DNA from: Heptranchias perlo
Taxonomy: Eukaryota
Assembly: GCF_035084215.1 (NCBI RefSeq)
Contig: NW_027139623.1
Location: forward strand, 2,232,001-2,296,000
Reading direction: 5' to 3'
Length of the DNA: 64,000 bases
Numbering within the stretch: position 1 is the first letter of the stretch; every line of letters begins with the position of its first letter. Of the stretch, positions 7,836 to 8,546 are shown in pieces. Under the pieces are notes generated by a model. That model made no database searches, had not been told where the DNA came from, and saw only the letters and a program-made list of their open reading frames with translations. A program made the position numbers and the translations under genes.

Positions 7836-8017
7836 AGCTCGGAGCGGATTTGAGTCATTTCTGGGTCTGAAATTGAGTTTGAAAATGCCTGAGGACAAGA
7901 AAGCAGCTCCCAAGAAGGGCGCCAAGAAAACCTTGAATAAAGCACCAGCCAAGGGCGGCAAGAAGCGGAGAAAGTCGAGGAAGGAGAGTTACTCCATCTA
8001 CGTCTACAAAGTGATGA

Positions 8018-8255
8018 TTGTAAACAATTTTACAACACCAAGTTATAGTCCAGCAATTTTATTTTAAATTCACAAGCTTTCGGAGGCTACCTCCTTCCTC
8101 AGGTGAACGATGTGGAAAAACACATCGTTCACCTGAGGAAGGAGGTAGCCTCCGAAAGCTTGTGAATTTAAAATAAAATTGCTGGACTATAACTTGGTGT
8201 TGTAAAATTGTTTACAATTGTCAACCCCAGTCCATCACCGGCATCTCCACATCAT
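8018..8255 (+). mobile_element. Penelope-like short element with perfect 98-bp inverted arms, copy 2
   Basis: Arms 8017-8114 and 8121-8218 are exact reverse complements around loop GAAAAA. Tail GTCAACCCCAGTCCATCACCGGCATCTCCACATCAT. TSD TACAAAGTGATGA at 8005-8017 and 8256-8268. Confidence 0.9.
8128..8166 (+). ncRNA. minimal type I hammerhead ribozyme motif (mirror copy on - strand at 8069-8107)
   Basis: Helix I TTCAC/GTGAA, core CTGAGGA (8133-8139), helix II GGAGG-TAG-CCTCC, GAAA (8154-8157), palindromic AGCT helix III. AATAAA follows at 8172. Confidence 0.8.
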
Positions 8256-8546
8256 TACAAAGTGATGAAGCAGGTTCACCCCGACACCGGCATCTCCTCC
8301 AAGGCCATGAGCATCATGAACTCCTTTGTGAACGATATTTTCGAGCGCATCGCGGGTGAGGCTTCCCGCCTGGCCCATTATAATAAACGGCACACCATCA
8401 GCTCCCGGGAGATCCAGACCGCCGTGCGACTGCTGCTGCCCGGGGAACTGGCCAAGCACGCCGTTTCGGAAGGGACAAAGGCGGTGACCAAGTACACCAG
8501 CTCCAAGTAAAACTCCACAATGCACTGAAAAAAAAGTAAACACAAA

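What the first reader, a model, noticed from the sequence alone, without database searches (positions are those of the whole stretch)
8005..8268. Perfect 98-bp hairpin element with hammerhead ribozymes inserted inside histone H2B
Seen: 238-bp insert, exact 13-bp TSD, mismatch-free 98-bp arms with a 6-nt loop (implying a recent event). Each arm carries TTCAC-CTGAGGA-A-GGAGG-TAG-CCTCC-GAAA-GCTT-GTGAA followed by AATAAA, so either transcribed strand contains one hammerhead. Established: Penelope-like retroelements have pLTRs with minimal type I hammerheads whose palindromic helix III works through dimerisation, and often leave inverted-pLTR insertions. Inference: a recently active, ORF-less, ribozyme-bearing retroelement that knocks out histone genes.
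Basis: partly seen in the sequence, partly recalled or inferred. Interest (0 to 1): 0.8.

Follow-up and report, generated by a model that had tools for sequence, protein, structure and literature searches.

The report
Penelope hairpin insertions hit palindromic targets
The hairpin in this shark histone gene is one of hundreds of similar short head-to-head leftovers of an abundant Penelope-like jumping gene, whose insertions favour a symmetric DNA site and have hit the same base of histone H4 genes eight separate times, likely because a two-part enzyme cuts both strands and copies RNA from each cut.

Summary
Observation confirmed: 238-bp insert, 13-bp target duplication, perfect 98-bp arms, minimal hammerheads, H2B frame broken. 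It is not an independent ORF-less element. It is a short product of a young, Neptune-type Penelope-like element (PLE) in a shark genome: 26,312 exact tail matches, 913 similar hairpins, and a 902-aa RT + GIY-YIG ORF. This hinge sequence is unique. The architecture is known, and this scan found it before on other DNA.

New here:
(1) Insertions favour a dyad site, CNNTGYC-[12 bp]-GRCANNG.
(2) One H4 site fitting it holds 8 distinct elements, in both orientations, at 13 of about 274 H4 5' ends. A predicted second H2B site was also hit (1 of 3 prediction searches).
(3) Arms stop preferentially 30 nt below a conserved TATA box, not at the ribozyme cut.
(4) Either arm can be the longer, and a few pairs differ in haplotype.

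Best model (inferred): a dimer nicks both strands, primes two cDNAs at the two ends of the tail, both run off the RNA 5' end and are end-joined. Ribozyme activity at this locus is unlikely. Loss of 1 of about 360 H2B copies is probably neutral.

The parts
7885..8017 (+). Histone H2B coding sequence, 5' part (codons 1-44)
7998..8004 (.). Left half-site of the dyad target consensus
   Evidence: the site at 13-bp spacing scores in the top 0.07% of window positions
8005..8017 (+). Target-site duplication, left copy (13 bp)
8018..8118 (-). Tail-less arm: pLTR from -36 to -137 relative to the PLE start codon (TATA+31)
8069..8107 (-). Minimal type I hammerhead motif, left arm
8119..8120 (.). Two untemplated bases at the hinge; hinge sequence unique in the genome
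8121..8218 (+). Tailed arm, part shared with the left arm: pLTR from -133 (TATA+35)
8128..8166 (+). Minimal type I hammerhead motif, right arm; predicted cut after 8161 (CUU)
8219..8255 (+). 37-nt PLE 'tail', ending in the first two bases of the PLE start codon
8256..8268 (+). Target-site duplication, right copy
8269..8510 (+). Histone H2B coding sequence, 3' part; its first 7 bases are the right half-site of the target
17760..17849 (+). Tail-less arm of the same family at the recurrent histone H4 target site; the rest of the element and the H4 5' end are deleted
6813..7037 (.). Second, older hairpin insertion of the same family; duplicated elsewhere in the cluster (L188)
38480..38608 (-). Single tailed arm of the same family

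Best explanation
The insert is a short head-to-head product of an abundant Penelope-like retrotransposon, likely made when a dimeric RT-endonuclease cut both strands of a symmetric target and primed two cDNAs that would have run off the RNA's 5' end and been end-joined. Steps: (1) shown: the sequence is the pLTR plus tail of an RT + GIY-YIG element. (2) shown: family targets have a dyad consensus around a 12-13 bp duplication, and this H2B site fits it. (3) inferred: the two nicks leave 12-13 nt 3' overhangs, each priming reverse transcription, one at the start-codon end of the tail and one at its other end. (4) shown: arms end preferentially about 30 nt below a TATA box conserved in all subfamilies seen; inferred: this is the transcription start, so the arms are run-off copies of the 138-nt leader. 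(5) inferred: the two cDNA ends are joined by microhomology-type end joining. (6) inferred: the product has no TATA box, is a dead end, and its hammerheads are silenced by the long stem.
For: Parent ORF with DKG, GTKF, YIDD, Cys linker and C-terminal GIY-YIG-like domain. Tail joined to the ORF start at 847 places. Duplication of 12-13 bp in 46 of 87 loci. Half-site G1, C3, A4, G7 at p 3e-10, 9e-9, 1.5e-5, 2e-7 from 26 non-histone sites; dyad correlation 0.75 against -0.43 for the mirror control. Leave-one-out enrichment 40-220-fold. Eight distinct elements at one H4 site, one in the opposite orientation with the same 12-bp duplication. Predicted second H2B site filled at 3 places, 2 events. 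Arm ends: 24 of 86 in TATA+26..+35, hazard 0.052 per nt against 0.0023 just upstream of TATA and 0.0026 around the ribozyme cut. Genome-wide 20-mer counts fall 12,744 > 6,826 > 4,162 over 12 nt. Tail on exactly one arm in 59 of 62 hairpins; tail-less arm longer in 28, tailed in 21, equal in 10; 1-4 nt overlap at the hinge in 27 of 62. Arms differ at subfamily-diagnostic sites in 6 of 63 pairs, p 6.5e-5. In vitro, the anole PLE cuts and extends both strands, starts RT at two sites flanking the tail, is predicted to be a dimer and does not need ribozyme cleavage (PMC11167929).
Against: 57 of 63 pairs share one haplotype (67% would differ if drawn at random), as fold-back also predicts. One of the 6 differences is a CpG-type change. 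A first run of this test with misaligned rows gave p 0.22. The end zone is broad: 10 of 86 arms end between TATA+1 and +25, and 22 between +36 and +65. No RNA 5' end was mapped. The target profile rests on 26 sites and explains about 200-fold of the 1,600-3,600-fold H4 excess. Two of three prediction searches found nothing. In 9 of 30 ORF-start copies the upstream pLTR ends at -39 to -73, not at the proposed start. The one full ORF examined has a Cys-to-Ser change in the linker.
Confidence: 0.68

Rival explanations
1. Same PLE origin, but the second arm arises by self-priming fold-back of one cDNA, with later break-and-repair of the palindrome centre and occasional gene conversion.
For: Self-priming was proposed for head-to-head PLE junctions (PMC3846280, passages). 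57 of 63 pairs share a haplotype. Some hinges look like snap-back products.
Against: Fold-back of a tail-primed cDNA cannot make the tail-less arm the longer one, yet it is in 28 of 59; in L033 it is about 2.6 kb against about 0.2 kb. A few pairs carry different subfamily alleles. The target is a dyad.
Confidence: 0.2
2. The hinge position is set by RT stalling, protein binding or another RNA 5' end rather than by the transcription start.
For: Broad end zone with an upstream shoulder. No RNA data on starts (one search gave contigs only). The fly Penelope promoter is TATA-less and internal (PMC2377424, passages).
Against: TATA is kept in subfamilies whose sequence around the hinge differs. The modal end is the A of an initiator-like TCATTTC (Inr consensus recalled), 21 of 124 arm ends in a partly selected set. 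A stem would be expected to stall RT on its 3' side, not past its 5' side (inference).
Confidence: 0.25
3. An independent ORF-less hairpin element (retrozyme-like) copies itself with active hammerheads and targets histone genes.
For: Hammerhead core invariant and helices 97% paired over 26 variants. Animal retrozymes derive from pLTRs (10.64898/2026.07.22.740005, parts 1-3). Recurrent H4 hits.
Against: Hinge unique. Hinges vary. No tandem repeat at this locus. No TATA box. Stem -176 against -13.6 kcal/mol for the ribozyme fold. Most sampled copies lie outside histone genes.
Confidence: 0.04
4. The hairpin is an assembly artefact.
For: No contig spanning the locus in four public runs.
Against: Exact duplication, a tail on one arm only, a target fitting the family consensus, and 913 similar hairpins.
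Confidence: 0.02

Closest known systems
Endonuclease-positive Penelope-like elements, Neptune/Nematis type (Craig et al. 2021, PMC8557442; Arkhipova et al. 2013, PMC3846280)
   Same: RT then C-terminal GIY-YIG with Cys linker; pLTR; inverted 5'-truncated copy next to a direct copy; 30-40 nt tail on one end; hammerhead in the pLTR; TATA and Inr-like motifs noted in a rotifer pLTR; duplications of 8-10 bp.
   Different: Here the duplication is modal at 12-13 bp within a dyad consensus with recurrent hot spots. The passages I saw describe AT-rich or microsatellite targets. Here most products are tiny and end at one zone.
PAc, the anole Poseidon element studied in vitro (Frangieh et al. 2024, PMC11167929)
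   Same: Two RT start sites flanking the tail; both strands cut and extended; predicted dimer; uncleaved RNA as template.
   Different: Other clade: ORF starts inside the hammerhead, ATT cleavage preference. The parts I read do not explain inverted insertions or give a dyad target.
Minimal hammerheads of metazoan PLEs (Cervera and de la Pena 2014, PMC4209133)
   Same: Core, extra base before G10.1, G10.1-C11.1 pair, palindromic 15.2-16.2; pairs on opposite strands 100-700 bp apart already noted.
   Different: Helix II here is 5 bp. Activity untested; the tested monomer in that paper was inactive.
Non-LTR retrozymes (Li et al. 2026, 10.64898/2026.07.22.740005)
   Same: Non-coding, pLTR-derived, type I hammerhead.
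   Different: Retrozymes are tandem direct repeats. This is a head-to-head product with a unique hinge.
L1 twin priming and site-specific non-LTR elements such as R2 (recalled, no call)
   Same: Two target ends prime cDNA; multicopy genes collect recurrent insertions.
   Different: Here both cDNAs copy the same RNA segment from fixed internal starts. The preference is loose and genome-wide, not exclusive to one gene family.

Membership tests
EN+ Penelope-like element | Single ORF with RT and C-terminal GIY-YIG endonuclease | tested here: met
   902-aa ORF; RVT_1 E 3e-10. Pfam did not call GIY-YIG on it directly; the motif aligns with homologues that carry PF01541.
EN+ Penelope-like element | DKG and GxKF motifs; CCHH inside the endonuclease | tested here: met
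   DKG at 296, GTKF at 499; two Cys between the GIY and YIG equivalents and two downstream His seen by eye in the alignment.
EN+ Penelope-like element | pLTR, partial tandems, adjacent inverted copy, 30-40 nt tail | tested here: met
Neptune clade | CX2-5CxxC linker between RT and endonuclease (shared with Nematis) | tested here: met
   Present in L032-L035, L037; Cys-to-Ser in P0001.
Neptune clade | RT phylogeny with named Neptune references | not tested
   No named references at hand; the vertebrate survey found only Neptune and Poseidon.
Minimal type I hammerhead | Core, extra base, G10.1-C11.1, palindromic helix III, paired helices I and II | tested here: met
   97.3% paired, 0 of 500 shuffles. 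Rows were chosen by a pairing descriptor, so this is inflated; pairs with two-sided change were not significant (95 of 500).
Minimal type I hammerhead | Self-cleavage | not testable with these tools
   Needs in vitro assay.
Non-LTR retrozyme | Tandem direct repeats each with a hammerhead | tested here: not met
   Head-to-head, two arms only.
Self-copying non-autonomous element | Many copies of one fixed unit | tested here: not met
   Hinge found once; hinges vary.
Strictly site-specific retroelement | Insertions confined to one target gene family | tested here: not met
   Dispersed genome-wide; 13 of 17 elements in histone-cluster DNA lie outside histone coding sequence.

The most novel reading that the evidence does not exclude
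This shark Neptune element recognises a dyad DNA site as a dimer, makes a 12-nt staggered cut, and performs target-primed reverse transcription from both ends at once on its own 5' leader. That one mechanism would explain the inverted-pLTR-plus-tail signature of all EN+ Penelope-like elements. The conserved N-terminal codons of histone H4 happen to form a near-ideal site and are hit repeatedly, perhaps helped by open germline chromatin, making this a partly gene-targeting PLE.
Probability: 0.5. Interest if true: 0.72.

Novelty: new member of a known kind. Interest (0 to 1): 0.5.

Why it matters
The single hairpin is ordinary for its class. But how PLEs make inverted copies with a one-sided tail is stated as unresolved in the papers read (PMC8557442, PMC11167929). 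This family gives tens of thousands of young insertions, a defined target consensus and a natural hot spot, which make the double-priming model directly testable with purified protein. A sequence-preferring, both-strand-priming RT-nuclease would also be of interest as an insertion tool. Hundreds of perfect hairpins could be a source of double-stranded RNA against the family (inference, untested).

Tried and rejected
Rfam at both thresholds: no hammerhead hit; only histone stem-loops and non-specific long-hairpin miRNA models below their cut-offs.

DNA similarity search of the own genome returned nothing because common words are skipped; pattern searches replaced it.

Public runs: four runs laid on 7750-8265 gave only short contigs, none spanning. 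An RNA-guess run shows the uninterrupted H2B junction, which paralogues explain. Presence/absence polymorphism and RNA starts remain untested.

Ribozyme-cut RNA as main template: 1 of 86 arms ends within 1 nt of the cut (TATA+76; the script's label said +77). Rejected as the main route.

One ancestral H4 insertion with a remodelled centre: rejected. Filled genes interleave with empty paralogues (5 changes on the tree; the nearest neighbour of L223 is an empty gene with 4 mismatches) and one element is in the opposite orientation.

Haplotype test: first run spoiled by indel-shifted rows (p 0.22), two script errors, final run with 19 of 82 pairs dropped.

H1 translation failed, so H1 genes were not counted.

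Predicted H1 site (one orientation) and the other orientation of the second H2B site: no hits.

Literature searches that found no prior report of the run-off, twin-priming, dyad-target or histone points (listings only). Subscription papers, Repbase entries and all supplements were not seen and could hold such reports.

Full report
Observation. The window is a histone cluster: seven histone coding stretches and their 3' stem-loops. H2B at 7885-8510 is interrupted by 238 bp between two copies of a 13-bp sequence, and removing the insert restores a 124-aa H2B. The arms 8017-8114 and 8121-8218 are perfectly complementary (z -28.9). Each arm holds a minimal type I hammerhead as defined by Cervera and de la Pena (PMC4209133, parts 1-2 of 4 read). 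My descriptor hits both arms and never in 100 random 64-kb sequences. Across 26 variants the core is invariant and helices are 97.3% paired, though the rows were selected for pairing. Rfam does not detect it.

What it is. The own genome (3.25 Gb; nearest named proteins are from sharks at 80-97% identity) holds 4,783 exact copies of the 42-nt ribozyme stretch, 26,312 of a 62-nt pLTR-tail stretch, and 913 hairpins hinged within 13 nt as here. [quoted passage not shown] This is the Neptune/Nematis layout (PMC8557442, passages). The tail ends in the ORF's start codon, and tail-ORF junctions occur 847 times. The insert is thus pLTR from -137 to -36 inverted, two untemplated bases, then pLTR from -133 to +2. 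The hinge is found once in the genome, so it is a one-off product, not a copied unit. The inverted-copy-plus-tail layout is published (PMC8557442 and PMC3846280, passages), and earlier notes of this scan report it in other genomes.

Where arms end. I fetched 95 of the first 100 listed tail matches on one chromosome (86 unique). Of these, 24 end 26-35 nt below a TATA box that is kept in all subfamilies seen. The loss rate there is 0.052 per nt, against 0.0023 just upstream of TATA and 0.0026 around the ribozyme cut. Genome-wide, 20-mers starting at -133, -138 and -145 count 12,744, 6,826 and 4,162. Of 96 listed arms reaching -145, 66 also match 15 nt further up. The modal end is TATA+30, the A of an initiator-like motif (consensus recalled), in 21 of 124 ends of a partly selected set. 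I infer that the arms are run-off copies of the transcript's 138-nt leader. Against this: the zone is broad, no RNA start was mapped, and 9 of 30 ORF-start copies end at -39 to -73 instead.

How two arms arise. In 59 of 62 short hairpins exactly one arm has the tail. The tail-less arm reaches further in 28, the tailed arm in 21, and they are equal in 10. Hinges show 1-4 nt overlap in 27, are blunt in 5 and have extra bases in 30. Simple fold-back of a tail-primed cDNA cannot make the tail-less arm longer. Arms usually share a haplotype (57 of 63), but differences are enriched at subfamily-diagnostic sites (8 at 5 sites against 13 at 64; p 6.5e-5; 19 pairs dropped). A flawed first run was not significant. 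The anole PLE cuts and extends both strands and starts RT at two sites flanking the tail, without needing ribozyme cleavage (PMC11167929, parts 1-2 of 4 and passages). Double priming followed by end joining fits best. Fold-back with later remodelling of the centre remains possible.

Target. Duplications are 12-13 bp in 46 of 87 loci. From 26 non-histone sites with a 12-bp duplication (of 46 clean ones), the flanks form a dyad, CNNTGYC-[12, 74% AT]-GRCANNG. Half-site p values run from 3e-10 to 1.5e-5, and the dyad correlation is 0.75 against -0.43 for the mirror control. Leave-one-out enrichment is 40-220-fold, and 13 of 18 held-out sites score above 3, where the background 95th percentile is 1.7 (best register chosen). 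The H2B site of the finding scores in the top 0.07% at 13-bp spacing. It is filled once, against 359 empty copies.

Histone hot spot. In 464 kb of histone-cluster DNA, 4 of 17 elements touched histone coding sequence, three at the same H4 base. Genome-wide, 13 places carry an element at that site, against 261 empty H4 5' ends. By hinge and haplotype they are 8 distinct elements. One is in the opposite orientation with the same 12-bp duplication, and filled genes interleave with empty paralogues on a tree. The site is the best-scoring in H4 (top 0.02%). The profile predicted another H2B site, which is filled at 3 places representing 2 events; two other prediction searches were empty. H4 occupancy of 2.9% is 1,600-3,600 times the uniform rate and 7-16 times the profile's estimate. 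So sequence preference explains most but not all of it.

Function at this locus. A transcript through the insert would fold into the 98-bp stem (-176 against -13.6 kcal/mol for the ribozyme fold), so cleavage is unlikely (inference). The gene has a premature stop, but it is one of about 360 copies. Independent reads neither confirm nor contradict the locus.

Novelty. Known: the class, the layout, the minimal hammerhead, pLTR-derived non-coding repeats (10.64898/2026.07.22.740005, parts 1-3 of 5 read), and pLTR promoters (PMC2377424 and PMC3846280, passages). Not found in my searches or in the scan's notes: the dyad target, the recurrent histone site, and the hinge at a predicted start. Subscription papers, repeat databases and supplements were not seen. 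Verdict: new member of a known kind with useful new mechanistic evidence; interest 0.5.

Noticed in passing
window 17760-17849: A family arm at the recurrent H4 site; a later deletion removed the other arm, the H4 start and its promoter, fusing it to the H1 3' flank.
   Followed up: yes
window 6813-7037 and L188:1125-1348: Same hairpin and flanks at two places in the cluster: a segmental duplication carrying the insertion.
   Followed up: partly
L054, L074, L072, L117, L118, L140: Repeated insertions at identical sites inside what look like high-copy CR1-type repeats (label recalled), in one case in both orientations; more evidence of hot spots.
   Followed up: partly
L157-L186: In 9 of 30 copies that include the ORF start, the upstream pLTR stops at -39 to -73, inside the tail stem-loop region; unexplained.
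   Followed up: partly
G000:C2:21273033-21276299: Nine tail-ORF junctions at a 404-bp period: a tandem array that may be retrozyme-like.
   Followed up: no
L003, L028, L126, L140: Hinges with templated insertions of nearby sequence, resembling polymerase-theta end joining (resemblance recalled).
   Followed up: no
window 1-5240, 12700-13750, 23280-28200: Long minisatellite-like arrays of roughly 41-46 bp period flanking the histone genes.
   Followed up: no
L031:1500-4208 (-): Full open 902-aa ORF with one linker Cys replaced by Ser; other copies keep the Cys.
   Followed up: partly
window 8172-8177: AATAAA lies about 55 nt below the proposed start and upstream of the tail, an LTR-like layout that would need read-through for long copies.
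   Followed up: no
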